DNA of 64,000 nt. It comes from an uncultured delta proteobacterium. Its GTDB lineage: Bacteria; Myxococcota_A; Polyangia; Polyangiales; Houyiibacteriaceae. The stretch covers positions 224,001 to 288,000 of the forward strand of contig CAVOVB010000007.1 in assembly GCA_963699755.1 (NCBI GenBank), given 5' to 3'. The stretch's first letter is position 1. The number at the start of each line of letters is the position of its first letter. The position numbers were made by a program, and so were the translations under genes. Positions 14,200 through 49,163 of the stretch are shown in pieces. The notes beneath the pieces were generated by a model. It made no database searches. It was not told where the DNA came from and saw only the letters and a list, made by a program, of their open reading frames with translations.

Positions 14200-14214
14200 G
14201 CGCAAAACTTGCGC
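14200..14214. promoter_or_regulatory. Palindromic regulator box GCGCA-AAACT-TGCGC
   Basis: Perfect GCGCA-N5-TGCGC in the divergent nqrA/lipoprotein spacer. Confidence 0.7.
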
Positions 14215-14260
14215 TTCCTTCGCTGCTGATCCTGCAACACAAACGTGGTACAAACCAGTC

Positions 14261-14803
14261 ATGCGATGGATCGTCTGCGTAAGTATCCTTTTCGCACTAG
14301 GCAGTTGCGGGAAGGATGAAATCTACTTCATTCCTGGGACGGGGACCTTGCCAGACTGCAACGAAACCCCCGACATGAACCTCGACGGATCCTGCTGGTT
14401 CGACCGTGGAGTCGTCACCATACGCTCAGATGGCTGCAGAGAGGCGATGCCCGATGAGATGTTTACGGTGTGCGGGCTCGCCTGGTCGTTCACCCAGACT
14501 GACAACGACGTCACGATCATCGTCGACGGGGAGTACCGAATCGACGGCAGACTGTGCGGTGACCAGCTTCATTTGCGTGGTGGCTGGTGGCTGCTGGTCG
14601 AGGACGCGGGGATGTGCGACTACCAGGACGAGGAGTCGGCCGACGAAGTAGGCATCCAAGATGGAGGCAACACCCTGACGCTCGTCCCCGCTAGCCCGGA
14701 GACGGGCGGCCAAGCACAGATGAGCGGCGTCTTGGCCGTCCAAGGCAGCTGTAGCGCCGAGTACGACGTCGACCTCCAACCGGGCGCCGGCTGCTACTTC
14801 TAG
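14261..14803 (+). CDS. Hypothetical Cys-rich acidic lipoprotein
   Basis: Lipobox LGSC after a hydrophobic leader. Confidence 0.75.
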   Translation: MRWIVCVSILFALGSCGKDEIYFIPGTGTLPDCNETPDMNLDGSCWFDRGVVTIRSDGCREAMPDEMFTVCGLAWSFTQTDNDVTIIVDGEYRIDGRLCGDQLHLRGGWWLLVEDAGMCDYQDEESADEVGIQDGGNTLTLVPASPETGGQAQMSGVLAVQGSCSAEYDVDLQPGAGCYF

Positions 14804-14804
14804 G

Positions 14805-16118
14805 TCAGCACGGCGATTCTTCGTAGAGATACCCGAGGACGTCTTCGCGCGAGAGAATCCCAACGATCCGTGCGCCGTCGAGCACTGGCAAACGGCCGAT
14901 GTTGTGGGCGGTCATCTGGTCGAGCGCCTCTTGGAGGGATGCGTCCGGACTGATGCTTCGAACTTTGTGCGCCATGCAGCTCTTGACCGCGAGCGAGCCG
15001 CGCCCTTCACGCTGCGCCCTCTCGACATCGCGACGCGAGATGACGCCGACCAGCGCATGGTTCTCGACGACCGGTGCGCCGGTGTGGCCCCACTCGTGAA
15101 GTGACTGGGCAAGCTCGGTCAACGGCATGTCCGGCGCCACGGTCCGGACCGGGCTCGACATGAGGTCGCGCACGATTTTCGGCTCGACGCAGTAGCGCTC
15201 GATGCCTGCACGCAGCCGGCTGACGACTTCGCTCAACGAGGCGTCACGCACGACTCCGGAACCCGCTCCGGCATGCCCGCCCCCGCCGAGCTCTTGGAGA
15301 ATCGCACCGACGGGAATGCTGCTCGACCGTGCCCGACCGATGATGTGGGTCTTACCGTTCGGAAGGCGATAAAGGCAGAAGAGCGCGTCGTATGGAAGAA
15401 TGCGAAACGCCTCGGTCGATACCGAGGCAAGTCCCGCCGGCACCTCTGCGGTCTCCAACGAGGCAATCCCGATCGAGGTGCTGAATCGGGGAAGCTCCTC
15501 CACCGCCTCGATGATCCGCACCAACAAATCGCGCTCGATGGCATCCAAGGCCGGCTTCAAGAATCGTTGAAGCAGCACTGCCTGCGCCCCGTGACCGAGC
15601 AGCCAGCCGAGCGCCATCGCGTCGCGAGAGCTCGAACGCGCATAGGCGAGCGAGCCCGTATCCTCGTGAATCCCCAAAGAAAACAAAGTGGCTTCCTCCC
15701 GATCGATCTCCACGCCGCGCGCCCGCAGCTCTTCGACCAGAAGCGTGGTGACGGCGCCGACGGGCTGCACGTGCTCCTCGTCCGCGTTCAAGTCGTCGGG
15801 CGCGCTAGGGTGATGATCCCAAACGGCGATGCGAACGCTTCGTGGTGCTTGCGCCGAGCGCAAAATCACTTCTTCGACATGCGCCAAGCGGCTGCGGCGG
15901 CGAACGTCTGCCACTATTAGGAAATCCACGTCACCGAGATCGAGGTCCTGGCAGCGTTGCGTTGGAAATCGATCTCCGTGAATCGTCAGATAGTGATGAA
16001 CGTTCGGGGCGAACCCACCGCTCAGACCGATCTGCGAACCTGGAAACAGTTTCTGAAGCGCCACACACGACGCCAAGCCATCGAAGTCGGTGGTCTCGTG
16101 CGAGGTGATGAGCTTCAC
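14805..16118 (-). CDS. DHH/DHHA1 phosphoesterase with C-terminal CBS pair
   Basis: SHETTDFDG, WDHHP, GIHEDTG, GGGGHAGAG, then two CBS repeats. Confidence 0.9.
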   Translation of the reverse strand: MKLITSHETTDFDGLASCVALQKLFPGSQIGLSGGFAPNVHHYLTIHGDRFPTQRCQDLDLGDVDFLIVADVRRRSRLAHVEEVILRSAQAPRSVRIAVWDHHPSAPDDLNADEEHVQPVGAVTTLLVEELRARGVEIDREEATLFSLGIHEDTGSLAYARSSSRDAMALGWLLGHGAQAVLLQRFLKPALDAIERDLLVRIIEAVEELPRFSTSIGIASLETAEVPAGLASVSTEAFRILPYDALFCLYRLPNGKTHIIGRARSSSIPVGAILQELGGGGHAGAGSGVVRDASLSEVVSRLRAGIERYCVEPKIVRDLMSSPVRTVAPDMPLTELAQSLHEWGHTGAPVVENHALVGVISRRDVERAQREGRGSLAVKSCMAHKVRSISPDASLQEALDQMTAHNIGRLPVLDGARIVGILSREDVLGYLYEESPC

Positions 16119-16126
16119 GTCAGATG

Positions 16127-16531
16127 CTACAGAGTGTCCTGGAGCACGCGCAAGAGGTCGACGTAGCTGACGATTCCGAGCAAGTCGCCGGTGTCGAGAT
16201 CAGCGACGGGAATCGCACCCACGCGATGCAGAAGCATCAGCTCCAGGACTTCACGCACGTCGGTCTCGGGATCGACCTTGACCGTGCTGGTGTTCATGAA
16301 ATCGCCGACGGTCGCCGAGCGTGCGCTCTCGATCGCATCGATGGCGTCGTCTTCGCGGGCCGCAGAGAAGCCACGGAGGTCGCGGTCGCTGACGATGCCA
16401 ACGAGCTCACGGCCGCGGACCACCGGAAGGTGCCGGACATCGAGCTCAAAGAGCACTCCCAAAGCTTCGGCGACCGACATCATCTCGGTCGCCGTCACGG
16501 GGTTTTCAGTCATGATGTCTTTTGCGAGCAC
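16127..16531 (-). CDS. CBS-domain pair protein
   Basis: AKDIMT, VRHLPVV..LVGIVSDRD; GAGGAG RBS. Confidence 0.92.
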   Translation of the reverse strand: MLAKDIMTENPVTATEMMSVAEALGVLFELDVRHLPVVRGRELVGIVSDRDLRGFSAAREDDAIDAIESARSATVGDFMNTSTVKVDPETDVREVLELMLLHRVGAIPVADLDTGDLLGIVSYVDLLRVLQDTL

Positions 16532-16565
16532 AAGGTTCTCCTCTCACAGGTCGCCCTCCATGAAG

Positions 16566-17417: not shown

Positions 17418-17483
17418 CGGTGTTGGAGATAGCACCCGCTGACCCACGATCCATCGTATTTTCTCGAGGCCTGACCGAGCGAT

Positions 17484-17498
17484 GCGCAATATCTGCGT
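17484..17498. promoter_or_regulatory. Regulator box GCGCA-ATATC-TGCGT upstream of the cbb3 cluster
   Basis: Match to RCGCA-N5-TGCGY in the divergent ywiC/cco spacer. Confidence 0.7.
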
Positions 17499-17580
17499 AT
17501 TCGGCTATAACTGAGCTTGCGCCGCGTCCCCAGGCTCTTCGCGGCGTGACCCTTTCGATGATCGACCCTACGGAAACGCC

Positions 17581-18309: not shown

Positions 18310-20702
18310 CCGCGCCGGAGCCAGTCGTCTGCGAAGTTCCTGCGGCGCACTCGATGCCGGCGGTGCCGCGCTGCGTTCACTGCGCGCAGCCGATGGTGAA
18401 CGAGAGCTTTGCACCATACTGCTGTCGCGGTTGCCGCGCCGTCCACGGGATCCTCACCAACGCCGGGCTGACGCGCTACTACGACCTGCGCCGCGGACCG
18501 GGCCTTCCTCCGGCAGATCTCGAGTCCCGCCGAATCGACCACAAATGGCTTGAGCTCATCGAAGAAGAGCGGGCCGGAGAGTCTGGGGTCAGCCGCGTCG
18601 CGCTCGACATTCAAGGAATCCACTGTGCTGCCTGCGTCTGGCTGATCGAGGAGCTCTTCAGACGCCATGGAGGCACACGAACCGGCCTCATGTCGATCAA
18701 CCCCGCGCTCGGCCGCGTCGAGCTCCGCGTCTCGCCGGAGTTTCCGCTTTCCGATTGGGTCGATTCGGTGGAGGACCTCGGATACCTTCTCGGCCCCGCC
18801 CGATCGACCGGCGCCAGGGCTTCGGACGACCTGCTCATGCGCGTCGGCATCTGTGCCGCGCTCGCGGCAAACGTGATGCTCTTTGGCGCTGCGATGTACC
18901 TGGGCCTTCGCGAAGGCCCGATCTACGAGCTGCTCAACCAGCTCAGCTACGCGGCCGGTGTCCTGGCGGTTCTCGTCGGAGGCTCGGTTTTCATCGGGTC
19001 TGCCTTCCGCGCGGTTCGGAGCCGCGTCCTGCACCTGGACGTGCCGATTGCGCTCGGCATCGTCCTCGCCTTCGCAGGCTCTACCTATTCATTCTTCTTT
19101 GCCTCCGGACAGGCCGCCTACATCGACACGCTGACCGTATTCGTGGCACTCATGCTGGTCGGCCGCTGGCTTCAGCAACGCATGCTCGAACGTAATCGCG
19201 CCCAACTTCTCGCCGACGACGGCACCGAGAGCTTGCTGACACGGGAGATCAAAGATGGGGTCGTGCGCATCGTGCATTGTATCGGTATCCAAAAGGGAGA
19301 CCGCTTGCTGATCGCGCCCGGCGATTTGGTTCCGGTGGATCTCCGTGTACTCGACCAGGCAGCGAGTTGCTCCCTCGACTGGATCGACGGGGAAAGTCGC
19401 CCGCGCCGCTTTGGCAATGGAGCTGTCGTCCCGGCCGGTGCCTTCAACGTCGGGGAGCGGGCGTTTTCTGGGATCGCAACGACCGACTTCGCCTCATCGT
19501 CGCTCGTGGGATTGCTCGGTCGGGACCCGGCTTCCAAGGGCGATGGTCCATTGGCCACACCTTGGTGGTCGCAGCTTTCGCGCTTCTACGTGCTTGGCGT
19601 CGTGACCCTTGCCGCGGCGGGAATCGGCTATTGGTGGTGGCGAACCGGGGAGCCGCTCTTCGCGATCGAGGTGGGCACGGCGGTCTTGGTCGTGACCTGC
19701 CCCTGCGCGTTCGGAATTGCCGCGCCCTTGGCCTACGAGCTCGTGCTCACCCAGCTGCGCCGCGCCGGCATCTTCGTGCGCGTCGGGGACTTCCTCGATC
19801 GGGTGCGCGGGGTGAAACACATCGTGTTCGACAAGACCGGAACGCTCACCACGGGCTCTCTGGAGGTCGCCAATCCTGTCGCCCTCGAAACACTATCGGA
19901 TGAGCAAATCACCCTCCTCTACAACATGGCAGCACGAAGCGCGCATCCAAAGAGCGTCGCCGTCCGGCGCGCCCTCGAAGGGCACCAGGCGGCACATTTC
20001 ATCGAGCTCGAGGTCGACGAGCAAACCGGGTATGGCACGAGCGCTAGGACCGACGGTCGAGAGCTGAGGCTGGGTTCACCCGACTGGGCCGCCAAGGTGG
20101 CTGCGGAAGACGGCGACGTGGTCTTCTCGATCGATGGCAAAGCCCTCGCCCTCCTCCGGAGCGACGAGCAACTGCGCCCCGGCGCCCGGGCGGAAATCGA
20201 CAAGCTCGTGGGCGACGGCTACGAGCTCGCGATCTTGAGCGGGGATTCGCCTTCGCGGGTCGTGAGCCTCGGCGCGAGCCTGGGCATGGCGGAGGAAATC
20301 TGCGTCGGCGGTCACAACCCCGAGCAAAAGGCGGCGTACGTCCGGGCGCACGACCCGGCACGGACTTTGCTCGTGGGCGACGGCTTGAACGACCAGGTTG
20401 CCATGCGAGAGGCCGCCTGCTCGGGCACACCTGCAGTGAATCGGCCGTTCATGGCTTCACGATGTGATTTTTACTTCGTGTCCCCGGGCTTGCACCCGGT
20501 GGCGCAAGTTTTGCGCGCGTCCGGCATGCTCGCGCATGTCGTGCGCCGGATCCTTGCCTTCGCAATTGCTTACAATCTGGTCGCCGTATCTCTCGCGTTG
20601 GCCGGTTTGATGCGGCCGTGGGTCGCAGCTGTGCTAATGCCGCTCAGCTCGCTGATCACGCTCGCGTACACGGTGATGATGTTGTCGCGAAAGAGGCTCT
20701 GA
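18306..20702 (+). CDS. ccoI: CcoI/FixI-type Cu-transporting P1B ATPase
   Basis: CVHC...CCRGC, IHCAAC, TCPCA, DKTGT, GDGLND; GTGA overlap start inferred. Confidence 0.9.
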   Translation: MTAPEPVVCEVPAAHSMPAVPRCVHCAQPMVNESFAPYCCRGCRAVHGILTNAGLTRYYDLRRGPGLPPADLESRRIDHKWLELIEEERAGESGVSRVALDIQGIHCAACVWLIEELFRRHGGTRTGLMSINPALGRVELRVSPEFPLSDWVDSVEDLGYLLGPARSTGARASDDLLMRVGICAALAANVMLFGAAMYLGLREGPIYELLNQLSYAAGVLAVLVGGSVFIGSAFRAVRSRVLHLDVPIALGIVLAFAGSTYSFFFASGQAAYIDTLTVFVALMLVGRWLQQRMLERNRAQLLADDGTESLLTREIKDGVVRIVHCIGIQKGDRLLIAPGDLVPVDLRVLDQAASCSLDWIDGESRPRRFGNGAVVPAGAFNVGERAFSGIATTDFASSSLVGLLGRDPASKGDGPLATPWWSQLSRFYVLGVVTLAAAGIGYWWWRTGEPLFAIEVGTAVLVVTCPCAFGIAAPLAYELVLTQLRRAGIFVRVGDFLDRVRGVKHIVFDKTGTLTTGSLEVANPVALETLSDEQITLLYNMAARSAHPKSVAVRRALEGHQAAHFIELEVDEQTGYGTSARTDGRELRLGSPDWAAKVAAEDGDVVFSIDGKALALLRSDEQLRPGARAEIDKLVGDGYELAILSGDSPSRVVSLGASLGMAEEICVGGHNPEQKAAYVRAHDPARTLLVGDGLNDQVAMREAACSGTPAVNRPFMASRCDFYFVSPGLHPVAQVLRASGMLAHVVRRILAFAIAYNLVAVSLALAGLMRPWVAAVLMPLSSLITLAYTVMMLSRKRL

Positions 20703-20902
20703 TGGAGATCTTGATCTTACTGATTTTCATTTGCGTAATACTGGTTGGCGTCGCGGTAGCGTTCTTCGCGTGGACCGTGCGGCAAGGGACTTTCGATCAG
20801 GCCGATCGCCTTGCCCTGCTCCCGCTTGACGATGAAAAGCCCATGACCCCAACGACGGAGAGGGAAGAGGACGAGTATGGAAACCCAGCGGATCGTTTAT
20901 AA
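20702..20902 (+). CDS. ccoS: cbb3 oxidase maturation protein CcoS
   Basis: MEILILLI...[11 protein letters not shown]...LLPLDD; position between ccoI and ccoN. Confidence 0.88.
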
Positions 20903-23222
20903 CGACAAGGTCGTCCGCCAGTTCTTGTGGGCGTCGGTGCTGTTCGGCATCGTCGGCATGCTGGTGGGGATCGTCATCGCGCTGCAGTTGGCCTGGTGGC
21001 CGGCGAACCTGCCACCGTATTTGTCCTTCGGCCGTCTGCGGCCTTTGCACACCAACGCCGTCATCTTCGCGTTCGTAGGCAACATGCTCTTCGCGGGCAT
21101 CTACTATTCGACGCAGCGATTGGTCAAAGCGCGCCTCGCGTCGAACATCTTGTCGTCGATCCACTTCTGGGGCTGGCAGCTCATCATCGTCGCGGCGGCG
21201 ATCACCCTCCCACTCGGCATCACCGCGGCCAAGGAGTACGCAGAGCTCGAATGGCCGATCGACATTGCGATCGCCGTCATCTGGGTCGTCTTCGCGGTGA
21301 ACTTCTTTTGGACGCTCGCCAAGCGACGCGAGAAGCATTTGTACGTCGCGATCTGGTTCTACATCGCAACGATCATCACCGTTGCGGTGCTGCACATCGT
21401 AAACAGCTTCGAGATCCCGGTCAGCATCTTCAAGAGCTACTCGGTGTTCGCGGGCGTTCAAGATGCGCTCGTGCAGTGGTGGTACGGCCACAACGCGGTC
21501 GCCTTCTTCCTGACGACGCCGATTCTCGGCATCATGTATTACTTTCTTCCGAAGGCTGCCGAACGGCCGGTCTTCTCTTACCGGCTCTCGATCGTTCACT
21601 TCTGGGGCCTCGTCTTCATCTACATCTGGGCGGGCCCTCATCACTTGCTCTACACGGCCTTACCCGACTGGGCGCAGAGCCTCGGCATGGTCTTCAGCTT
21701 GATGCTCTGGGCGCCGAGCTGGGGCGGCATGTTGAATGGCCTCCTCACACTTCGGGGCGCATGGGATAAGCTCCGCACCGACCCCGTCCTGAAGTTCCTC
21801 GCCGCCGGCGTGACCTTCTACGGCATGAGCACCTTCGAAGGGCCGCTCCTCAGCATCAAGAGCGTCAGCGGCCTCGCCCACTACACCGACTGGATCATCG
21901 GTCACGTGCACAGCGGCGCCCTCGGCTGGAACGGCCTCATGGCAGCCGGCATGTTCTACTGGCTGGTTCCGAGGCTCTACGGCACGAAGCTTCGCTCCGT
22001 TTCGGCTGCGAATTTTCATTTCTGGATCGCGACCGTTGGCATCCTCATCTACGCCATTTCGATGTGGGTCGCCGGCATTACACAGGGCCTGATGTGGCGC
22101 GCGGTCAGTGAGACCGGCGGGCTTCTGTACCCGAATTTCGTGGAGACCTACCTCGCGATTCGGCCGATGTACTGGGCGCGCCTCATCGCGGGCCTCCTCT
22201 ACTTCGCAGGCATTGTCTTGATGGCCTGGAACCTCATCGCAACCGCTAGGAGCGGAGCCCCCGTGGACGGCGAGGTCGAAGTTGCAGTGGTCACCGAGCC
22301 TCGGGCCCGCGAGATCCCCTGGCCGAAGCTTCTCTTCGGTCAGCCGGTCATGGCGTCGATCATCGTCATGGCATTGCTCTTCGGGACAGCCCTCTTCGAC
22401 GGCTTGATCAGCACGATCCTCGCCGTCGCTGCGATCATGTGGGCAGTCGCGGCGATTGCCGTGTCGATCCGCAATCGCGCGGACGAGGAGGTTTCCTGGC
22501 ACCACGCAATCGAGGGCCGCGCCGGAATCTTCACCGTCCTGGTCGTCATCGGCATCTTGGTCGGCGGCGTTGCCGAGATCATTCCGATGATCATCTCCGT
22601 CCCCGAGACGATCCGCACCACGAAGAACGTTCCCTACACGCCGCTCGAGCTCGAAGGCCGCGATGTCTTCATTCGGGAAGGTTGCTACACCTGCCACTCG
22701 CAGATGATTCGCCCTTTCACCTGGGAAACCGCTCGCTATGGCGCGGTCTCTACGATGGACGACTCGATTTTCGACCACCCGTTTCAGTGGGGCTCCCGGC
22801 GCATCGGTCCGGACCTGTCGAGGGTCGGGGGCAAATATTCCGACAACTGGCACTACAAGCACATGATCAACCCGCGTGAGCTTTCGCAAGGCTCGAACAT
22901 GCCGCCCTACGCGCATCTCGCGACGGAAACGATCGACTTCGCTGGCACGCAGGTGAAGCTGCGCGCCATGCGGAACATCGGTGTTCCCTACCGGGCAGAT
23001 CAAATTCAGACGGCGGAACAGAGCGCGCAATCCGCGGCATCTGCGATTGCAGCAGGCCTGGCCAAGGACGAAGGCGTTGCCGTCTGCGACGAGCCAACCG
23101 AGGGCTGCGAGCTCGTAGTCAATAGCCGATTGGTCGCGCTCATCTCCTACCTGCAACGTTTGGGTCGTGTGCCCGAAAGCGAAGCCCTCGCCGCGGTCGA
23201 AGCGAAAGAGGTGGCGAAATGA
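20877..23222 (+). CDS. ccoNO: cbb3-type cytochrome c oxidase, fused subunits I and II (CcoNO)
   Basis: [32 protein letters not shown]; then [23 protein letters not shown]. Confidence 0.96.
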
Positions 23223-23404
23223 GTCGACTTGCCGCCGAATTCTTCGAACGAAGCCCCGTGCTGCTCTATCCGCTGCTCGCACTGGCTTTGTTCTTCATCG
23301 TGTTTCTTGTCGTCATCGTTAGCGTCATGCGGATGAAGAAATCCAAGGCGGACGAATACGCACGCATTCCGCTCCAAAAGGAGTCGGAGGTACCACATGA
23401 GTGA
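23219..23404 (+). CDS. ccoQ: cbb3 oxidase subunit CcoQ-like
   Basis: One TM helix, YARIPL tail, position between ccoNO and ccoP. Confidence 0.75.
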
Positions 23405-23969
23405 TGAAAAACGAACCGACGAGATCCAAGGCGAGATCCTGCACGTCTATGACGGCATCGAGGAAGCCGACAACAACCTGCCGATCTGGTGGCTGCTCAC
23501 ATTCTACGGGGCGGTCGCCTTCGGGCTGGTCTACTGGTTCAACTACCACGTGTACGACATTGGGAAGCTGCAACCCGAGATCTATGCCGATGCAGTGGCT
23601 GCCGCAGAAGCGGAGCGCAGCATCGTCACCGACGAGTCCCTCGACGCACTCTCGATGGACGCAACCGCGGTGGCCGCCGGTCAGGCAACCTTCATGGCGC
23701 AATGCGTCGCCTGCCACGATACGCAGGCTCAGGGACGCGTCGGCCTCGGCTCCAACCTCACCGACGAGTATTGGGTGCACGGAGGCGCGCCCACCGACAT
23801 CCACGCGATCGTCACCAACGGCATCGCGGAGAAAGGAATGCCTCCTTGGGCGCCTATCCTAGGCGAGCAAGGCGTGAACCAAGTCGTCGCCTATGTGCTG
23901 ACCCTGCGGAACACGAAGGTCGAGGGCGGCAAGCCTGTCGAAGAGAACGCAAAGCTCTGGGAACCCTGA
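23397..23969 (+). CDS. ccoP: cbb3 oxidase subunit III, short mono-haem form
   Basis: HVYDGIEEADNNLPIWW, single CVACH, NLTDEYWVHGG, GMPPW. Confidence 0.92.
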   Translation: MSDEKRTDEIQGEILHVYDGIEEADNNLPIWWLLTFYGAVAFGLVYWFNYHVYDIGKLQPEIYADAVAAAEAERSIVTDESLDALSMDATAVAAGQATFMAQCVACHDTQAQGRVGLGSNLTDEYWVHGGAPTDIHAIVTNGIAEKGMPPWAPILGEQGVNQVVAYVLTLRNTKVEGGKPVEENAKLWEP

Positions 23970-24013
23970 GGCCAGCTTGCCGGATGGACTTCCGACCCTA
24001 AAGACAGCCGAGG

Positions 24014-25402
24014 ATGACCATAAAGCTGCCCGTCGTTGAAGAACCTGCAAGCTCATTGCGTTCCGACGGCAGTCGCAACTACGTGCATCCAGCCGATGTG
24101 AAAGGCCGGTTCACGCGCCTCCGATACACGATCTTCACAGTCCTGATCGCGATCTACGTTCTGTTGCCCTTCATCAAGATCGGAGGACACCCGGCGGTCT
24201 TTCTCGATATCGTAAACCGGCGTTTCTACTTGTTCGGTGCCGTGTTCAACGCGCAGGACTTCTGGCTCGTGTTCTTCCTGCTGAGCGGCGTGGGCCTGGC
24301 CCTTCTGATCGTCACTGCGGTCAAGGGGCGCTTATGGTGCGGCTACGCCTGCCCGCACACGGTCTTTCTCGAAGGGGTGTTTCGACGTATCGAGCGTCTG
24401 ATAGAAGGGCCGAGAGCCCAGCGGATGCGGCGCAACGCCGCCGGTCTCAGCTTCGACAAAGTCTGGCGCAAGCTGCTCAAGCACGCCGTGTACATCGTGC
24501 TAGCGCTTCTGCTCTCGCACGTGTTCGTCAGCTACTTCGTCTCACTTCCGTCGCTCCTCGAGATGGTGCAGAGCAGCCCCGCCGAGCATCCGACCGCCTT
24601 TACCTGGGTGGTCGTGATGTCGGCCATCCTCTATTTCAACTTCAGTTGGTTCCGCGAGCAGCTCTGTCTGATCATTTGTCCCTACGGCCGTCTCCAGTCG
24701 GCCATGACGGATCGAGACACGATGGTCATCGGCTACGACTTCAACCGAGGCGAACCGCGGGGCAAGGCCAGCGATCCGAGCAACGGCGACTGCGTGGACT
24801 GCAAACGCTGCGTCGTCGTCTGCCCGACCGGCATCGACATCCGCAATGGGCTGCAGATGGAATGCATCGGTTGTGCGGCTTGCGTCGACGCCTGCGATGA
24901 AATCATGACCAAAGTCGGCCGACCGGAGGGTCTGGTTCGCTACGACTCGCTCAATGGACTCGAAGGCAAGCCCAAACACTTCGGAAGGCCTCGCCTGTTC
25001 TTCTACGGGGGGATCGTCGCGCTTTGGCTGCTCGGCGCTACGCTTGCATTTTCGCAAAGCTCCGCGTTCGAAGCCAACGTGCTTCGCCTCGAGGGGGCCC
25101 CGTTCATGGTCGTCGATGGCAAGGTGCGGAACTCTCTGCGGGTGCATCTCGTCAACAAGACCGGCGACGAGCAGACCTTCATCATCGAGCCAGAGTCCGA
25201 AAGCGGCATCGAGTACATCATTCCTCAGAAGCGCATCGAGCTCGAATCGCTCGCCAGCACCTACCTGCCGATTCTCGCCATCCTTCCAGAAGACCAGATG
25301 AGCCCTGGCCTCGAATTGAAGCTCAGCATCTCCATGGAGGGCCGGGACGACCGGAAGGCCAGCCGTGTCGTCGGAGCGCCCTTCGTCGGGCCGAGCCGCT
25401 GA
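24014..25402 (+). CDS. ccoG: cbb3 accessory protein CcoG/FixG
   Basis: GRLWCGYACP, CPYGR, two CxxCxxCxxxC ferredoxin motifs. Confidence 0.95.
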   Translation: MTIKLPVVEEPASSLRSDGSRNYVHPADVKGRFTRLRYTIFTVLIAIYVLLPFIKIGGHPAVFLDIVNRRFYLFGAVFNAQDFWLVFFLLSGVGLALLIVTAVKGRLWCGYACPHTVFLEGVFRRIERLIEGPRAQRMRRNAAGLSFDKVWRKLLKHAVYIVLALLLSHVFVSYFVSLPSLLEMVQSSPAEHPTAFTWVVVMSAILYFNFSWFREQLCLIICPYGRLQSAMTDRDTMVIGYDFNRGEPRGKASDPSNGDCVDCKRCVVVCPTGIDIRNGLQMECIGCAACVDACDEIMTKVGRPEGLVRYDSLNGLEGKPKHFGRPRLFFYGGIVALWLLGATLAFSQSSAFEANVLRLEGAPFMVVDGKVRNSLRVHLVNKTGDEQTFIIEPESESGIEYIIPQKRIELESLASTYLPILAILPEDQMSPGLELKLSISMEGRDDRKASRVVGAPFVGPSR

Positions 25403-26333: not shown

Positions 26334-26349
26334 ATCAAGCTTCGTGCCA
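26334..26349 (-). promoter_or_regulatory. Putative sigma54 promoter for the USP pair
   Basis: TGGCACG-AAGC-TTGAT on the minus strand (one mismatch in the -12 element). Confidence 0.55.
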
Positions 26350-26391
26350 GACGAGAGACACGGCTTTCGCGCAGTGAGCATAGCCAAAATG

Positions 26392-26435
26392 ACGCAGGTT
26401 CTGCGAATGTTTCCGATCGGGCGCAGAACTTGCGT
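26392..26435. promoter_or_regulatory. Tandem regulator boxes ACGCA-GGTTC-TGCGA and GCGCA-GAACT-TGCGT
   Basis: Two boxes 29 bp apart between divergent sigma54-like promoters. Confidence 0.75.
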
Positions 26436-26465
26436 GCCGGCAGAGGAGAAATGCTGCTAAACCAT

Positions 26466-26481
26466 TGGCGCGGTCCTTGCA
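26466..26481 (+). promoter_or_regulatory. Putative sigma54 promoter for the hemerythrin operon
   Basis: TGGCGCG-GTCC-TTGCA. Confidence 0.75.
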
Positions 26482-30346: not shown

Positions 30347-30391
30347 GCGCAGCGGTTGCGCTTGCCGACGGCGCACATGCAGATGTTGCGC
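30347..30391. promoter_or_regulatory. Tandem regulator boxes GCGCA-GCGGT-TGCGC and ATGCA-GATGT-TGCGC
   Basis: Two boxes 30 bp apart upstream of the glycogen operon. Confidence 0.75.
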
Positions 30392-30451
30392 CGACCTAGT
30401 GAAGATGTTGATCAATTGTGATGGAAAAGCAGGCCTTGGCACGCAAGGCTT

Positions 30452-30467
30452 TGGCACGGCTCCTGCT
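30452..30467 (+). promoter_or_regulatory. Putative sigma54 promoter for the glycogen operon
   Basis: TGGCACG-GCTC-CTGCT. Confidence 0.7.
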
Positions 30468-34005: not shown

Positions 34006-34013
34006 GGTGAACG

Positions 34014-38200: not shown

Positions 38201-39469
38201 ATGGGACACGACTGGCGAAATCAGATCGAGGATCCCCATTGTTGGCAGTGGTTGCGTAACCACGATCCTGCCGAGATCTGGGCGACTCATCGCGACCTCC
38301 GCGCGGACTACATCGACTGGCTCAAAGAGCACCTCACCGAGACCTGGACTCGCCGACGTGAAGACCTCTCCTTGCTCCGCGACATTCTCTCGAGGCTCGA
38401 CCAAGATCGAATGTTCATCGGCTTTGCTCGACGGTTTGCGCCGTACAAGCGCGCCGACCTGCTCCTGACCGAGCCAGAGCGGCTTGCCAAGCTGCTCAAT
38501 GGCAACCCAGGCGCCACGATCATCTACGCGGGCAAGGCGCATCCAGCCGACGGCCACGGGCAGGCGCTGCTGCAGCGGGTCTATCAGGCGACGAAGCACC
38601 CCGACCTCGCTGGGCGTGTGATCTTCATGGAGGATTACTCGATCGACTCAGCGCGCCGAATGGTCGCCGGATGCGACGTCTGGTTGAACACACCGACCCG
38701 TCCTCTCGAGGCAAGCGGAACCTCGGGCATGAAGGCCGCGATTAATGGCTGTCTGAACCTGAGCGTCGATGACGGCTGGTGGCTCGAAGGCTACGCCGAG
38801 GACAACGGCTGGGTCATCGACCTGCCGGACACCTCGATTCACGACCCCAGCGCTTACGACCGTGCTGTGACCATGGCACTCCTCGAAGGCGAGATTCTAC
38901 CAACCTACCATGACCGAAACTCCGAAGGGGTCCCGGTGGCCTGGGTGGAGAAGATGAAGGCCAGCATGTCCAGCATCATTCCCAGGTTCTCCGCGCGCCG
39001 GATGGTCACCGACTACGCGGACAACTTCTACGAGCCAGCCATGCAGGACGCGGTCGCTCTTCGCGACTCGAACTATCGCCCGCTATTCGCTCTGGCGGAT
39101 TTGGCGGAGGCGATCCGCAATCACTGGAACGAAATCGCGATGGAAAGTGTCCGCTTTGGCGGCTTGAGTGCGGACGAGCTGGTCGTCGGCACGACGGTGA
39201 CGGCCGAGCTTTCGCTTCATCACCCCGGGTTGGACGCACGGGAGCTAGTAGTCGAAGCCGTCGTAAGCTACGGCAGCCGCCTTCAAGATCACTCCTCTAG
39301 AATGGTAGTCCCCTTCGAATCAGAGGACGCAGAAGAGCGGAGCACCTGGAAAGGCGCTTTCACCGTAAGAGCGAGCGGCGGCCACGAGCTCAGATTCCGC
39401 GTCAGGCCAAGGGACCGAAGCCCGCTAAGGCCGGCAGCCTTGGGCATGCATATCCAAAAGTGGCTGTAG
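35213..39469 (+). CDS. glgP: Fused GT3-type glycogen synthase / alpha-glucan phosphorylase
   Basis: N-part: SWEVCNMVGGIHTV, FTTHAT, GRYEYTNKG, YEPWGYTPLE; C-part: YSGGLG, NEGH, ARRFAPYKR, EASGTSGMK PLP lysine. Confidence 0.92.
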   Translation: MSNAVFFEISWEVCNMVGGIHTVLASRVREVHERHGEDGYITIGPDVPRSEGVAPEFRPDIWDRKLAESLQDHEVGVDMGRWLVPGEPRCLLINQSRLYQRKDEILGRYWEQYGLDSLFGAWDYYDPVLFAHGAGMVIEHIRDRFLLPARHTAIVQAHEWMSAGAILHLQSAAPEIGTVFTTHATVLGRSLAGQRADPNFYQSLPNIDPEVAAKELNVSSKHSMESVAAHEADVFTTVSEITSLECEHLLGRKPDVILPNGFGARPVEPEQRGRAREELFQLAELTTGDHYNRENTLIFVLAGRYEYTNKGVDVYLNATTGLAEELRSRDGKRILVYAMLPAGHAEPKRQLWDRAHGASAGAPLRCTHDLVDEPNDPITNQLNALRCDNAPGAPVHVVHVPIYLDGTDPFIRQKYWDLLPGADLGVFPSFYEPWGYTPLEAVAFGVPAVTTDRAGFGRWVAAQGDRQRTGVRVLTREGVPTPEVTESLKKALLEFIDLPAKDRAALREVSLRTAALTDWSNFMEHYEDAHTRALAAGAARRKELPMDRLSVTSMPAVSSDSSGVFGLFVKPPVEEGEEAAPYKRTFLVANALPPELLPLKAIAANLWWRWHPEVAALFKRIDPVLWFQVEENPHALLDQVTPSRLMALADDPGYVADVGRFHQEMVESTQTQDPRIAYFCMEFGLAGFLKLYSGGLGILAGDHLKAASDMNLPLCAVGLAYHDGYFHQIIDRDGHQEHLGDTNNFENAPFEPVMVGRYSPLRVTVPLPTGPVQVRAWQLKVGRVPLYLLDTNLPENRPEDRAITNRLYGGDTVHRLRQEIILGLGGYQLLTELDIEPDVFHMNEGHSAFLLLARAAHLIKRHGLRSQEAFEYIRNTTVFTTHTPVPAGHDHFPEEMVRPYLTRFEHVLRMDWPRLMAMGNTPDDADNKFGTTALAVRNAGRINGVSAKHGEVARDMFLQFFPEFDDPDDVPCASITNGVHVSTWLAPRWQRLMERQMGHDWRNQIEDPHCWQWLRNHDPAEIWATHRDLRADYIDWLKEHLTETWTRRREDLSLLRDILSRLDQDRMFIGFARRFAPYKRADLLLTEPERLAKLLNGNPGATIIYAGKAHPADGHGQALLQRVYQATKHPDLAGRVIFMEDYSIDSARRMVAGCDVWLNTPTRPLEASGTSGMKAAINGCLNLSVDDGWWLEGYAEDNGWVIDLPDTSIHDPSAYDRAVTMALLEGEILPTYHDRNSEGVPVAWVEKMKASMSSIIPRFSARRMVTDYADNFYEPAMQDAVALRDSNYRPLFALADLAEAIRNHWNEIAMESVRFGGLSADELVVGTTVTAELSLHHPGLDARELVVEAVVSYGSRLQDHSSRMVVPFESEDAEERSTWKGAFTVRASGGHELRFRVRPRDRSPLRPAALGMHIQKWL

Positions 39470-41164: not shown

Positions 41165-41180
41165 AGCAAACCCCGTGCCC
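41165..41180 (-). promoter_or_regulatory. Putative sigma54 promoter for the DUF5335-Host_attach-CBS operon
   Basis: GGGCACG-GGGT-TTGCT on the minus strand. Confidence 0.7.
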
Positions 41181-41220
41181 AATCTCGGAGCCCTAGTTTG
41201 GCTGCTGATCTCGGCAATTG

Positions 41221-41264
41221 ACGCAAACGATGCGCCGATCGGGCGCAGCGCGATAGAATTGCGT
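41221..41264. promoter_or_regulatory. Regulator box ACGCA-AACGA-TGCGC plus degenerate partner GCGAT-AGAAT-TGCGT
   Basis: Boxes 29 bp apart, about 40 bp from the sigma54 element. Confidence 0.68.
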
Positions 41265-43794: not shown

Positions 43795-43810
43795 AGCAAG
43801 CACCATGCCA
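43795..43810 (-). promoter_or_regulatory. Putative sigma54 promoter for the USP gene
   Basis: TGGCATG-GTGC-TTGCT on the minus strand. Confidence 0.75.
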
Positions 43811-43850
43811 GATTCCTCTGGAGAAATCTCCCCTTCTCACGACGGCCTGC

Positions 43851-44333: not shown

Positions 44334-44378
44334 GCGCATATTTTGCGCTTGCTCGGATTGCAAATGCAGAATATTCGC
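44334..44378. promoter_or_regulatory. Tandem regulator boxes GCGCA-TATTT-TGCGC and ATGCA-GAATA-TTCGC
   Basis: Boxes 30 bp apart in the divergent CBS / WS-DGAT spacer. Confidence 0.75.
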
Positions 44379-44430
44379 TCATGCTGTCTCGATCTCTGCA
44401 GAGAATCAACCTATCTGCCAGCAGCTGACT

Positions 44431-44446
44431 AGGCTCGCATCTTGCT
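44431..44446 (+). promoter_or_regulatory. Putative sigma54 promoter for the WS/DGAT-regulator operon
   Basis: AGGCTCG-CATC-TTGCT. Confidence 0.65.
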
Positions 44447-44461: not shown

Positions 44462-45889
44462 ATGCCGGAAACCTTCTACGAGCGTCTGAGCGCCTTGGAT
44501 GCGACGTTCCTCGACGTCGAAAGTAAGTCCGCGCCCATGCATGTCGGTGCGGCCCTGGTGTTCGACGCAAAACCGCTCACCCTCGAGCACGGAGGCCTCG
44601 ATATCGAGCGCCTAAGCAAGTACACCGAGGCGGCGGTGGACTCGATTCCCCGCTACCGGCAGCGGATCGAATGGATTCCGGGGTACCGACACCCGGTTTG
44701 GGTCGACGACGATCGGTTCAACATGCACTTCCATCTGCGCCACACGCGGCTGCCCCTGCCGGGTGACGAGCGCTCGCTCAAGCGCTTGGTCGGCCGACTG
44801 TTCTCGCAGCACCTCGATCGGAGCAGGCCGCTTTGGGAGTTCTGGGTCGTCGAAGGAGTGGAGAATGACCGCTTCGCGCTGGTCATCAAAGTGCATCACT
44901 GCATGGTGGACGGCATCGCGGGCGTCGAGCTGCTTCAAGCCTTGTTGCAGATCAGCCCGGACGCGGTGGAGCGCGAGCCAGAACCATGGCAGGCGCGCCC
45001 GGCCCCGAGCGGCTTGCAGCTTCTCGTCAATGAGACGAACCACCGAGTCGACGGTCTGCGCAAGCTCAGTCACTTCATGCCCCGCGTTCGAGAGAACTTC
45101 AAAGGAGTGTCGAACGTGTTGCGTTCTGGAATGAAGCCCGCTCCACGGACACCATTTACCGAGCATGACATCAGCCCATACCGTCGATTCGACTGGACGA
45201 CCTTCGCGCTGGACGACGTGAAGGCGATCAAGAACGCTTTGGGCGGAACGATCAACGATGTTGTTGTCGCGACGACTACAGCCGCCGTGCGGCGCTATCT
45301 TCTACGTCATGGCACGGACGTGAATGCAATGGAAGGTTTCCGTACGCTGCTTCCCGTGAACACCAGGAAAGTCGGTGGGCCGTCGGGCGGGAATCACGTA
45401 GCCATGCTGCTCGCAGATCTCCCCGTGTCCGAACCGGACCCCACCGAACGATTGCAGAAGGTCATTCGCGTGACCACGGAGTTGAAGAACGAGTCCAACC
45501 AGACCGGAGGCGCCGAGCTTCTCGAAGATGTGGCCGACCTCACGACCAAGCGCATCGTTTCCGAGCTCTACCGCGCGGCGATGAAGCTGCGCACCTACAA
45601 CTTGATCATTACCAACGTCCCAGGGCCGCCGATCCCACTCTACATGCTCAGTGCGCGGATGACGGCCATCTATCCGATGGTCCCCTTGATGCAAAACCAG
45701 AACCTCGGCATTGCTCTGTTCAGCTACGCCGGCAATCTGCACTTTGGATTCAACGCGGACTGGGAATCTTTCCCCGACGTTCATGAATTCGTCGAGGATC
45801 TCGACGCTTCCTTCTCTGAGTACCAGCAGCTCGCCGCCATACGCTCTACGGAACTGCCAGGAGGAAAGGACGCTCGGGCGCGGGCCTAG
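44462..45889 (+). CDS. Wax ester synthase / diacylglycerol acyltransferase
   Basis: PMHVG, LDRSRPLWE, catalytic HHCMVDG, TINDV, TNVPGP. Confidence 0.95.
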   Translation: MPETFYERLSALDATFLDVESKSAPMHVGAALVFDAKPLTLEHGGLDIERLSKYTEAAVDSIPRYRQRIEWIPGYRHPVWVDDDRFNMHFHLRHTRLPLPGDERSLKRLVGRLFSQHLDRSRPLWEFWVVEGVENDRFALVIKVHHCMVDGIAGVELLQALLQISPDAVEREPEPWQARPAPSGLQLLVNETNHRVDGLRKLSHFMPRVRENFKGVSNVLRSGMKPAPRTPFTEHDISPYRRFDWTTFALDDVKAIKNALGGTINDVVVATTTAAVRRYLLRHGTDVNAMEGFRTLLPVNTRKVGGPSGGNHVAMLLADLPVSEPDPTERLQKVIRVTTELKNESNQTGGAELLEDVADLTTKRIVSELYRAAMKLRTYNLIITNVPGPPIPLYMLSARMTAIYPMVPLMQNQNLGIALFSYAGNLHFGFNADWESFPDVHEFVEDLDASFSEYQQLAAIRSTELPGGKDARARA

Positions 45890-45903
45890 AAAGCAAAGCA
45901 ACC

Positions 45904-47327
<1,424 letters not shown>

Positions 47328-47331
<4 letters not shown>

Positions 47332-48509
47332 GCCCCGGTCGGAATCCAGAACGACGCGCGTGTGCCACCATGAGGGAGCGGGGTCAGCGTCGCAGCGCCG
47401 CCGTGTAGGTCGACGATTCGCTTGACGATCGCAAGGCCGAGACCGGTACCGGCGTCCTTCGTGGTGACGAAGGACTCAAAGGCCCGCCCAAGGACTTCGC
47501 TCGAGACTCCGGGACCATTGTCGATCACGGCGAACTCCCAGCGCTTGTCGCTCAAGATCCGGCTAGTGATCCGGATGGCCGGCTGAGGGCAGCTCGCCAC
47601 TGCTTCGACCGCGTTCGTAATGAGATTGTTGACGACTTGCTTGAGGCGGTCGCTCTCGACTACCAGGGTGCAGGAACCCGCGTCGATGTCCTCGATGAAC
47701 TCAATCCCTTGTGACTCGATCTCTGGGCGGCGCAGCTCCAGGACCTCGCCGAGTAGCGTGCTCGCGTCGCAAGGGACTGGCTCCATCCGCCGGGCCCGAG
47801 CCAAGTTCAAGAAATCGTCCAACAAGAGCGACAGTCGCCGGAGCTCATCCTGTACCACGTTGGTCCGCCGTTCGATCTTGCGACGGGTGGATGCGTCCTC
47901 GACGCGCGAGGCCGTCCGCCGGAGAACATCGAGTTGTAGCTTCGCGGCGTTGAGCGGGTTTCTCACCTCATGAGCCAAGCCGGCGGTAAGGCGCCCCATC
48001 ACCGCGAGCGACTCCGCTTCGGCAGTCTTCTTGAGCACGTAGGCCTCGCGATAGCTTTCGAGCATGATGGCCAGCTCGATATCGCAAATCTGGTCGATCA
48101 CCCGGTGGTCTTCGAAGACCACTGAGCCGTCGGGAGCCGACTCCCACACGGCACGATGAAGGCCGACACGAACTAGATTCATAGCGCCGAGCATGTATCG
48201 CTGTTCGAGCCCGACCTTGACGTGGACGCGGCCGATCCGGGCGCGCCCTTCGTAGTACGCGCTGTCGTAGGTGCCCTCGAACAGCCCCTGGAGCCAGCGC
48301 CTGAACGAGAGCTTGAGGCGCTCGACCTGGGCTTCGCTCGTCAGCACCGCGCGCGCGCCGGGATCTTCGAGGATCGCCTCGTAGAACCGAGCCACGATGC
48401 CCTCGTGATAGGGCTCCATCCGACTACGCATCGCCCGCAAGCGACGGGCGGACTCGGCATCGAACCTCACGTAGCTTCTGAGGGCCGCAAGCAGGCTGGC
48501 ATCGGCCAT
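47328..48509 (-). CDS. Globin-coupled sensor histidine kinase (NmpU/GcHK-like)
   Basis: Sensor globin (IVARFY, RIGRVHVKVGL), H-box AHEVRNPL, NLITNA, DNGPG, GTGLGL; no TM helix. Confidence 0.92.
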
Positions 48510-48565
48510 TAGGCCTGGCTAAGAAACTGCGCCCCTCCTGTCAAGCGATTACGCCAATCGACCGG

Positions 48566-49033
48566 TCAAAAGGCCGACAGCGGGGGAAGCCGGACCATGC
48601 TCACTGGGCACGGCGCCTCCATGGCGAGCCTCTGGATGTCGAAGGGATTGACCTGATCAGCTCCGGTCATTGGCTGAATGCCAAGTAGGATCAGGTCGGC
48701 GCTCGAGCGCTGAGCGCTCTGCAAGACGTAGTCAGGCCAATGCCCGTCTTCGTAGAGCTCCGCTCTGCAGCGGACGCCGCGATCGGCACACCATTGCCGT
48801 TGGCGCTCGAGGAGCTGCCCTTCTTGGCGCAGCCTTGCCTCCACCCGGTCGCGCCAGCCATTGCCGTCCTCGCGCATCGACGGTGGAGGCTCAGTCCGTC
48901 GGCTCCCGCCACCTCCGTAGGTAGAAACCAAAACCACCTCGCCGTCGGTGGGACCAGCGATCAACGCAGCGAACCCCACCAGCTTGTAGCTCGCGGACGT
49001 CAGGTCCGTCACGGTAAGAATTGTAGATGCCAT
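48566..49033 (-). CDS. Divergent universal stress protein
   Basis: TILTVTD, ADLILLG, APCPV; ATP-binding glycine motif degenerate. Confidence 0.7.
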   Translation of the reverse strand: MASTILTVTDLTSASYKLVGFAALIAGPTDGEVVLVSTYGGGGSRRTEPPPSMREDGNGWRDRVEARLRQEGQLLERQRQWCADRGVRCRAELYEDGHWPDYVLQSAQRSSADLILLGIQPMTGADQVNPFDIQRLAMEAPCPVSMVRLPPLSAF

Positions 49034-49061
49034 ACGCGCCACCAGAGCCATTCGAACCAGC

Positions 49062-49077
49062 AGCAAAGTGCATGCCA
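49062..49077 (-). promoter_or_regulatory. Putative sigma54 promoter for USP (and possibly the kinase)
   Basis: TGGCATG-CACT-TTGCT on the minus strand. Confidence 0.75.
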
Positions 49078-49148
49078 TGTAAGAAACCCTGCAATACGGC
49101 GCACCGCTCGGTCGGCCGTCGGAAATCCTTGCGGGGAAAATCGAGAAT

Positions 49149-49163
49149 ACGCAGTTTTTGCGT
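49149..49163. promoter_or_regulatory. Palindromic regulator box ACGCA-GTTTT-TGCGT
   Basis: Perfect arms; a half-site-only partner lies 29 bp away at 49120-49134. Confidence 0.72.

What the first reader, a model, noticed from the sequence alone, without database searches (positions are those of the whole stretch)
14200..49163. Recurrent RCGCA-N5-TGCGY palindrome marks seven intergenic regions of the island
Boxes read directly at 14200, 17484, 26392/26421, 30347/30377, 41221, 44334/44364 and 49149, mostly with AT-rich spacers. I saw none in spacers outside 14-49 kb (inspection by eye only). It matches my recollection of the M. xanthus NmpR consensus GCGCA-N5-TGCGC. The local activator at 45904..47331 is the obvious candidate reader, so the regulon can be predicted from sequence.
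Basis: partly seen in the sequence, partly recalled or inferred. Interest (0 to 1): 0.85.

Follow-up and report, generated by a model that had tools for sequence, protein, structure and literature searches.

The report
Fused oxygen sensor drives NmpR regulon
The repeated palindromes are real, conserved DNA sites that are likely bound by a neighbouring activator of low-oxygen genes known from Myxococcus, but here the usual four-protein oxygen relay has collapsed into one hybrid sensor kinase that is predicted to work backwards, switching on when oxygen is lost.

Summary
Confirmed. RCGCA-N5-TGCGY occurs 10 times (shuffles 0.82). Most boxes are pairs 29-30 bp apart beside sigma-54 promoters, conserved in congeners. 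Motif, spacing and targets match the published Myxococcus xanthus NmpR regulon. The activator at 45904-47331 is NmpR's best match, with a near-identical recognition helix. The cluster is core, not an island, and the motif is genome-wide.

The new part is the sensor (47328-48509). Its globin is NmpU-type but its kinase is NmpS-type (AU test rejects NmpU, p=0.003); nmpS and nmpT were not found. It is likely a fusion inside the nmpU-(T)-S operon that phosphorylates NmpR directly. To keep a hypoxia output it must be off with oxygen, opposite to AfGcHK. Its globin-to-histidine linker is 37 residues against an invariant 36 in NmpU; +1 inverts engineered kinases. Independent fusions mostly avoid the NmpU phase. 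Polarity and binding are untested.

The scan already noted a two-protein Nmp version on other genomes. New variant of a known kind; interest 0.6.

The parts
45904..47331 (+). NmpR orthologue: receiver, sigma-54 AAA+ (GAFTGA intact) and Fis-type HTH; predicted reader of the boxes
47328..48509 (-). Hybrid globin-coupled histidine kinase: NmpU-type protoglobin (about residues 1-157) joined by one helix to an NmpS-type kinase (phospho-His180); linker 37 residues against 36 in NmpU
44334..44378 (.). Box pair 44334/44364 (30 bp) between the CBS gene (-) and the WS/DGAT-nmpR operon (+); predicted positive autoregulation
44430..44446 (+). Predicted sigma-54 -24/-12 site for WS/DGAT-nmpR
43795..43811 (-). 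Conserved sigma-54 site for the USP gene ending at 42886; about 520 bp from the nearest box pair
49149..49163 (.). Exact box upstream of the USP-kinase operon; a conserved TGCG half-site at 49130-49133 marks a degenerate partner 29 bp away
49062..49078 (-). Predicted sigma-54 site for USP (48566-49012) and the hybrid kinase
41221..41264 (.). Box pair 41221/41250 (29 bp) between DUF5335-baeRF-CBS (-) and the AAA_33 gene (+)
41165..41181 (-). Predicted sigma-54 site for DUF5335-baeRF12-CBS
30347..30391 (.). Box pair 30347/30377 (30 bp) upstream of the glycogen operon
30451..30467 (+). Predicted sigma-54 site for the debranching enzyme, GT4, GH57 and synthase/phosphorylase genes (30566-39469)
26392..26435 (.). 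Box pair 26392/26421 (29 bp) between two USP genes (-) and hemerythrin-USP-unknown-acetyl-CoA hydrolase (+)
26465..26481 (+). Predicted sigma-54 site for the hemerythrin operon
26334..26350 (-). Variant sigma-54-like site (GA at -12), invariant in 8 aligned sequences, for the USP pair
20502..20546 (.).
20355..20371 (+). Predicted intragenic sigma-54 site 147 bp upstream of that pair, facing ccoS-ccoNO-P-G (20702-25402), so the enhancer lies downstream of the promoter
17484..17498 (.). Exact box between ywiC-like (-) and DsbD_2-ccoI (+); weak conserved GG-N10-GC at 17431-17447 (-)
14200..14214 (.). Single exact box upstream of nqrA-F; no partner at 28-31 bp and no sigma-54 site; weakest candidate

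Best explanation
The palindromes are likely enhancer sites for the adjacent NmpR orthologue, which is predicted to activate sigma-54 promoters of cbb3 oxidase, hemerythrin, stress-protein, glycogen and lipid-storage genes under low oxygen, and the adjacent sensor is a hybrid of an NmpU-type globin and an NmpS-type kinase that likely phosphorylates NmpR directly and is predicted to be active without oxygen. Shown: the boxes, their pairing, sigma-54 geometry and conservation; NmpR orthology; the split ancestry of the sensor; the one-residue longer linker; no separate nmpS or nmpT found. Inferred: binding; a deletion within an nmpU-(nmpT)-nmpS operon as the origin; direct phosphotransfer; inversion of polarity by the helical phase shift. 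The last step replaces the double negative of the four-protein relay (oxygen turns NmpU on, NmpU turns NmpS off).
For: Boxes: 10 against 0.82 by chance. Partner offsets at intergenic boxes are 28, 29 or 30 bp in 13, 14 and 11 cases, at most 3 for any other offset. A sigma-54-like site lies within 130 bp of 38 of 72 intergenic boxes, against 0 of 24 control-spacer boxes and 3.4% of random positions. Sites recur at orthologous places in congeners. In ccoI only 14 of 288 fourfold columns are invariant; the 2 invariant GCG columns of 21 are the two boxes. Reader: best match to NmpR; the recognition helix matches NmpR, and of the 25 other AAA+ hits in G000 only the C1 twin shares it. Sensor: the kinase lies in the NmpS clade (100/97) apart from NmpU (100/100), and the AU test rejects a clade with NmpU, p=0.0029. 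The globin groups (99/96) with NmpU globins, many from the genomes whose NmpS groups with the kinase. AfGcHK His99 and Tyr45 are kept. G076, same family, has nmpU-nmpS converging on nmpR, the pre-deletion layout. In M. xanthus NmpS, not NmpU, phosphorylates NmpR. Linker is 36 in 36 of 38 NmpU rows (2 unmeasured) and in 36 of 39 U-type representatives (3 unmeasured), and 37 in 119 of 120 close homologues (1 unmeasured). The model shows one helix over residues 132-200. Signal-inverted YF1 variants fall in register +1 (PMC11164954 passage). Of 31 direct fusions with linkers up to 46, 2 lie within 60 degrees of the NmpU phase. Relay-type and fused-type relatives share target types.
Against: No binding, phosphotransfer or oxygen assay exists. 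The phase argument compares two different kinase domains, so equal phase need not mean equal polarity. The +1 shift is about 100 degrees, while the commonest fusion linkers (31, 38, 42, 45) sit near 200-260 degrees. Four longer direct fusions (51, 57, 61, 64) were left out by the 46-residue cut; three of them fall near the NmpU phase, and with all 35 the clustering drops to R=0.39. The lineage-level count (2 of 13, p=0.038) is post hoc. In other engineered kinases inverted variants span several registers. G042's fused kinase sits beside a different activator. Contig C7 is probably from a sister species mixed into the assembly, so the absence of nmpS and nmpT was tested mainly on the sister genome and on congeners.
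Confidence: 0.62

Rival explanations
1. Same boxes, same reader and same fusion, but the kinase keeps AfGcHK polarity (on with oxygen). The regulon is then induced when traces of oxygen reach otherwise anoxic cells.
For: The globin keeps the AfGcHK haem residues, and AfGcHK is active as Fe(II)-O2 and inactive as deoxy. cbb3 oxidase and hemerythrin need oxygen to be useful. Two of 13 fusion lineages keep the NmpU register.
Against: Targets include five USP genes, CBS proteins, a WS/DGAT and glycogen turnover genes. USPs, a triacylglycerol synthase and HspX are hypoxia-induced types in the DosR regulon (PMC3177182 passages). The same target types surround intact relays. The linker left the invariant NmpU length in 34 of 35 direct fusions.
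Confidence: 0.2
2. The boxes are read mainly or also by the genus-specific NmpR paralogue (G000 C1:648354-649748), which has a degenerate receiver, so part of the set is a constitutive or differently controlled regulon.
For: It is the nearest HTH after the twin (27 of 52 positions). Its acceptor aspartate is replaced in most copies. It is found in 15 of 24 congeners. Many box pairs elsewhere precede secreted-type genes with no hypoxia link.
Against: Its recognition helix differs from NmpR's, while the local activator's does not. The cluster's layout is shared with families where the paralogue was not found. Co-occurrence with the 28-bp cassette is not significant (11/4/4/5, p=0.21).
Confidence: 0.1
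3. The adjacent kinase does not feed NmpR; a distant NmpS-like hybrid kinase does, and the relay is intact but scattered.
For: G000 has other receiver-kinase hybrids, for example C1:1100843 at 33% to NmpS. The window's own organism may be only partly assembled.
Against: The 16 other G000 kinases placed on the tree lie outside the NmpS clade. An NmpS kinase profile scores the two fused copies 272 and 271, next 200. An NmpS receiver profile finds at best 100 bits against 137-169 for held-out true members. All 12 congeners give one match at E<=1e-44, whereas relay genomes usually give two.
Confidence: 0.05
4. The boxes are a chance or repeat-derived palindrome with no regulatory role.
For: About 50 matches per spacer class arise by chance genome-wide. 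50450 is such a case. Some outside pairs are copies of a repeated cassette.
Against: Spacer-specific enrichment, fixed pair spacing, sigma-54 association, conservation and synonymous constraint.
Confidence: 0.02

Closest known systems
NmpRSTU pathway and NmpR regulon of Myxococcus xanthus (PMC6211767, PMC11841059)
   Same: Box consensus, 14-15 bp pair gap, sigma-54 promoters, NmpR orthologue with the same recognition helix, and targets of the same types (P-type ATPase/cbb3 operon, hemerythrin, USP, CBS, the signalling genes themselves).
   Different: No separate NmpS or NmpT found; one hybrid kinase with NmpU globin and NmpS kinase. Targets are gathered in one 35-kb cluster and add glycogen, WS/DGAT, acetyl-CoA hydrolase, baeRF12 and DUF5335 genes. 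An enhancer pair lies inside ccoI, downstream of its predicted promoter.
AfGcHK, globin-coupled histidine kinase of Anaeromyxobacter sp. Fw109-5 (PDB 5OHE; PMC8697598)
   Same: Best solved-structure match for the globin (E 1.8e-27); His99 and Tyr45 kept; same two-domain layout and length class.
   Different: AfGcHK is the NmpU homologue and is active with oxygen. The window's kinase domain belongs to the NmpS clade and has a linker one residue longer than NmpU-type proteins; predicted opposite polarity.
FixL-FixJ (haem-PAS kinase, active without oxygen; PMC8697598 passage) and engineered YF1 linker variants (PMC11164954 passage)
   Same: Predicted logic: a single haem kinase, off with oxygen, directly driving a hypoxia regulator; polarity set by linker phase as in YF1.
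   Different: The sensor is a protoglobin, the output a sigma-54 enhancer-binding protein, and the chimera is natural.
DosR/DevR hypoxia regulon of Mycobacterium tuberculosis (PMC3177182 passages)
   Same: Tandem boxes in helical phase; USPs, a triacylglycerol synthase and HSP20 among targets. Further domain parallels (CBS, AAA_33, baeRF, erythromycin-esterase fusion, S30AE) are recalled, not from a call.
   Different: Unrelated regulator and sensors (recalled); a likeness of gene content only.

Membership tests
NmpR regulon | GCGCA-N5-TGCGC sites, with GCA-N5-TGC intact | tested here: met
   10 exact RCGCA-N5-TGCGY matches against 0.82; partners 41250 and 44364 break the GCA-N5-TGC core
NmpR regulon | Paired sites 14-15 bp apart | tested here: met
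   Five pairs at 29-30 bp start to start; 14200, 17484 and 49149 lack a partner with two or fewer mismatches
NmpR regulon | Sigma-54 -24/-12 site facing the target gene | tested here: met
   Sites at 20355, 26465, 30451, 41165, 44430, 49062; none at nqrA; only a weak one at 17431
NmpR regulon | NmpR orthologue with intact receiver, GAFTGA and NmpR-type HTH | tested here: met
NmpR regulon | Binding in vitro and NmpR-dependent, hypoxia-induced expression | not testable with these tools
   One RNA run gave only contigs of relatives
NmpRSTU four-component relay | NmpU: globin plus NmpU-clade kinase | tested here: not met
   Kinase in the NmpS clade; clade with NmpU rejected, p=0.0029
NmpRSTU four-component relay | Separate receiver-kinase hybrid NmpS | tested here: not met
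   Not found in G000 or as a second match in 12 of 12 congeners; the window's own organism may be incompletely represented
NmpRSTU four-component relay | Receiver-only NmpT beside the kinases | tested here: not met
   None at the locus in the window, its C1 twin or the 16 other congener loci; no G000 hit at E<=1e-25
Globin-coupled histidine kinase (AfGcHK type) | Protoglobin with proximal His and distal Tyr fused to HisKA-HATPase | tested here: met
Globin-coupled histidine kinase (AfGcHK type) | Kinase active in the Fe(II)-O2 state | not testable with these tools
   Predicted to be reversed; needs an assay

The most novel reading that the evidence does not exclude
Myxobacteria have repeatedly short-circuited the NmpRSTU relay by fusing the NmpU globin to the NmpS kinase, and each time restored hypoxia-on logic by shifting the helical phase of the linker. 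In this genus one added residue makes a natural oxygen-repressed globin kinase: a natural counterpart of the +1 inversion engineered into YF1, and an oxygen-off globin-coupled kinase for which my searches found no report.
Probability: 0.5. Interest if true: 0.8.

Novelty: new variant of a known kind. Interest (0 to 1): 0.6.

Why it matters
The boxes alone extend a known regulon to an uncultured Polyangiales genus. The sensor makes a general question cheap to test: can evolution replace a sign-inverting phosphorelay by changing one linker residue? There is a natural series (36 residues in NmpU; 31, 37, 38, 42, 45 in fusions) built on one sensor family with a characterised reference protein. A confirmed oxygen-off globin kinase would also be a compact two-gene hypoxia switch. 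It warns that globin kinases annotated as NmpU or AfGcHK homologues may have the opposite sign and a different partner.

Tried and rejected
Horizontal island: rejected. Box 50450 as a site: rejected; codon third positions vary and it is absent from the congener stretches. A sigma-54 site downstream of the ccoI pair near 20598: rejected, its GG and GC are not conserved. C1:1100843 as a displaced NmpS: rejected, outside the clade. Link between the paralogue and the 28-bp cassette: inconclusive (p=0.21). RNA evidence: one run with 0.09 of the words, contigs only and mostly under 95% alike, so nothing on starts or induction. Rfam gathering scan of the window, L098 and L099: one tRNA only. The 117-row careful tree did not finish and returned the quick tree; the careful result rests on 35 chosen rows. 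The literature search on downstream enhancers returned nothing I read. No complex prediction was sent: a kinase-receiver pair would tend to pass by likeness to solved pairs.
Full report
Observation. All ten listed positions hold a box: seven exact and three imperfect partners. The window has 10 exact RCGCA-N5-TGCGY matches; 100 dinucleotide shuffles give a mean of 0.82 and a maximum of 3, and other spacer lengths give 0-1.

Setting. The window is G000:C7:224001-288000. Named close homologues of the kinase are labelled 'Polyangiales bacterium'. Profile scans of 59 chosen ORFs give nqrA-F, a DHH-CBS gene, ywiC-like, DsbD_2, ccoI, ccoNO, ccoP, ccoG, five USP genes, hemerythrin, acetyl-CoA hydrolase, a four-gene glycogen operon, two CBS genes, baeRF12, DUF5335, AAA_33, WS/DGAT, a sigma-54 activator and a protoglobin kinase; one search adds ccoS. 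This is not an acquired island. GC is 0.59-0.66 throughout, nearly the whole window with flanks matches C1 at 79-82%, and the kinase is in 24 of 24 congeners. C7 is 83% identical and colinear to C1 over 251 kb in an assembly with 9% contamination. One of the two likely comes from a sister species, so genome-wide counts describe a mixture.

Promoter anatomy. Five sites are pairs 29-30 bp apart (20502, 26392, 30347, 41221, 44334). Sigma-54 -24/-12 sites (scored with a recalled consensus) face the targets at 26465, 30451, 41165, 44430 and 49062, with further conserved ones at 43795, 26334 and 17431. Genome-wide, with my own gene caller (4611 genes, 88% coding), 72 of 138 boxes are intergenic against 6-13 of 42-62 for seven control spacers. 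Partner offsets pile at 28, 29 and 30 bp (13, 14, 11; others at most 3). A sigma-54-like site lies near 38 of 72, against 0 of 24 control boxes and 3.4% of 2000 random intergenic positions. In stretches from 11 congeners plus the C1 twin, read, the ccoI pair is present in 8 of 8 that cover it, an exact box at the hemerythrin site in 8 of 8, a box or pair at the WS/DGAT site in 10 of 12, the USP-kinase box in 10 of 12, the nqrA box in 5 of 7, and the 50450 box in none.

The ccoI pair. In a nine-sequence codon alignment only 14 of 288 fourfold columns are invariant. The two invariant GCG columns of 21 are the two boxes, the one invariant GTG of 18 is in the second box, both CGC ends vary only C/T as the motif allows, and the one invariant GCA of 10 is the -24 element at 20358. 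The conserved sigma-54 site lies 147 bp upstream of the pair, so I infer an internal ccoS-ccoNOPG promoter with a downstream enhancer.

PMC11841059 (abstract, passages, sections 3, 16 and 22, supplement file 1; figures not seen) shows NmpR binding GCGCA-N5-TGCGC pairs, five of seven bound promoters with 14-15 bp gaps, at CBS, USP, P-type ATPase/cbb3, hemN-hemerythrin and nmpU genes; only 5 of 10 predicted promoters bound. I fetched the M. xanthus AM003 locus with a published primer. NmpR's best G000 match is the window activator (57%, 472 bits; C1 twin 463; next 372). Its recognition helix reads ISQRKIQYRVKE against ISVRKIQYRLKE in NmpR; over 52 positions the twin scores 50, one paralogue 27 and the other 23 hits 9-18. 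The acceptor aspartate and GAFTGA are intact. Binding is inferred, not shown.

The sensor is a hybrid. In M. xanthus, NmpU phosphorylates the receivers of NmpS and NmpT but not NmpR, and NmpS phosphorylates only NmpR (PMC6211767 passages and Discussion part 1 of 2; S2 Fig not seen). AfGcHK, the NmpU homologue, is active as Fe(II)-O2 and inactive when deoxy (PMC8697598 passages). The window has only a globin kinase converging on nmpR. Across the loci surveyed, globin kinases split into 38 NmpU-type and 24 whose kinase scores higher to NmpS. On a careful tree of 35 chosen kinase domains NmpU is a clade (100/100), NmpS plus the fused forms is a clade (100/97), and holding the window-type with NmpU is rejected (p-AU 0.0029). 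On a globin tree of 36 rows the window's globin lies in a 99/96 clade with NmpU globins, many from the same genomes whose NmpS groups with its kinase. G076, another genus of the same family, has nmpU-nmpS abutting and converging on nmpR; deleting the middle gives the window's layout. No separate NmpS was found: 16 other G000 kinases fall outside the clade, and an NmpS receiver profile reaches 100 bits against 137-169 for three held-out members. All 12 congeners give one match at E<=1e-44. The fused label needs at least three origins by starred branches, and four to nine by parsimony. Direction is well supported for this genus; a root for the whole family was not tested.

Mechanism. The relay is a double negative: oxygen turns NmpU on, which keeps NmpS off. 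A direct fusion reverses the output unless the sensor's sign also reverses. Relay-type and fused-type relatives have the same target types, with 29-31 bp pairs (18 loci, not all with pairs), so I infer the output was kept. From the end of the globin H helix to the phospho-histidine the distance is 36 residues in 36 of 38 NmpU rows (two unmeasured) and 37 in 20 of 24 fused rows, including G094 from a different NmpS subclade; the rest are 45, 61, 61 and 170. It is 37 in 119 of 120 close homologues. The AlphaFold model (pLDDT 82; 55-77 in the linker blocks) shows one helix over residues 132-200, so length sets phase. In YF1, signal-inverted variants fell essentially in register +1, though in the bacteriophytochrome chimeras they spanned several registers (PMC11164954 passages). 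Among the best 150 representatives at 50% identity, 134 carry a globin: 39 NmpU-type (36 measured, all 36 residues), 80 NmpS-type, 10 unassigned and 5 without an H-box. Of the 80, 35 are direct fusions, 40 have a long insert and 5 were unmeasured. The direct linkers peak at 31, 37, 38, 42 and 45, and only one is 36. For the 31 up to 46 residues, 2 lie within 60 degrees of the NmpU phase (mean angle about 200 degrees, R 0.53); with the four longer ones R falls to 0.39. By my own grouping 2 of 13 lineages keep the NmpU register (p=0.038, post hoc). The query was NmpS-type, so these counts do not measure abundance. This is suggestive, not proof: the two kinase domains may need different phases for the same sign.

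Beyond the cluster. A second group of hypoxia-type genes on C10 (hemerythrin, HSP20, PCMT-erythromycin esterase) and an S30AE gene on C4 carry boxes. A repeated cassette with a 28-bp pair and a sigma-54 site precedes small secreted-type genes. It is in 15 of 24 congeners and 1 of 16 other order-level genomes. Its reader may be NmpR or a receiver-degenerate paralogue found in 15 of 24 congeners; unresolved.

Novelty. The regulon is a new member of a known kind; the sensor is a new variant. Four searches listed no paper on an NmpU-NmpS fusion or an oxygen-inhibited myxobacterial globin kinase; most subscription journals are not covered. PMC6211767 notes that distant deltaproteobacteria have only an NmpU homologue, without kinase typing in the text I saw. 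The scan's own notes already describe a two-protein Nmp version on two other genomes and an NmpR-type cbb3 operon; the excerpts shown do not mention the hybrid ancestry or the linker, and I had reached both before looking. Confidence: boxes are NmpR enhancers about 0.9; hybrid kinase feeds NmpR directly about 0.85; inverted polarity about 0.7; whole model 0.62. Interest 0.6.

Noticed in passing
G000 C7 against C1:1583460-1910945: C7 is 83% identical and colinear to C1 over 251 kb; the assembly likely mixes two congeneric species. C9 also duplicates the ends of C3 and C4 at over 99%.
   Followed up: partly
L099 (G000 C2:843801-848100); also C2 367650, 857950, C3 3137, C10 18238: Array of small secreted or lipoprotein-like genes, several preceded by a repeated hairpin-like cassette with a 28-bp box pair and a sigma-54 site about 83 bp on; nearly genus-specific. 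It looks like a portable promoter module.
   Followed up: partly
L112:3357-4748 (G000 C1:648354-649748): Orphan NmpR paralogue with a degenerate receiver (acidic pocket and acceptor aspartate mostly lost) and a related HTH; in 15 of 24 congeners, not found in 16 other families' genomes.
   Followed up: partly
L108 (G000 C10:237801-246000) and L110 (C4:33801-37900): Second hypoxia-type group with boxes and sigma-54 sites: hemerythrin, HSP20, PCMT-erythromycin esterase, cation efflux, HAD hydrolase; a box pair before an S30AE-cold-shock gene.
   Followed up: partly
window 14805-16118: The DHH-CBS gene is absent from the C1 twin and from G023, G005 and G019, but present in G020, G011 and G015.
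   Followed up: no
window 45889-45904: Several congeners and the C1 twin have an extra sigma-54 site between WS/DGAT and nmpR; the window's gap is only 14 bp and lacks it.
   Followed up: no
window 14162-14167: A conserved sigma-70-like -10 hexamer (recalled consensus) on the minus strand upstream of nqrA; the lone box just upstream could repress or be neutral. About half of the intergenic boxes genome-wide have no sigma-54-like site nearby.
   Followed up: no
L053 (G042): A window-type fused kinase lies beside a non-NmpR activator and lone receiver genes, while NmpR is on another contig.
   Followed up: no
proteins P0123-P0267: Forty representatives have globin, a 100-300 residue insert and an NmpS-type kinase: a larger uncharacterised fused class, the insert probably the NmpS middle domain (not typed here).
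   Followed up: no
window 35213-39469: 1418-residue fusion of glycogen synthase and alpha-glucan phosphorylase domains.
   Followed up: no
window 433-504 and 27956-28759: A tRNA gene; and a conserved 267-residue gene without a Pfam match inside the hemerythrin operon.
   Followed up: no
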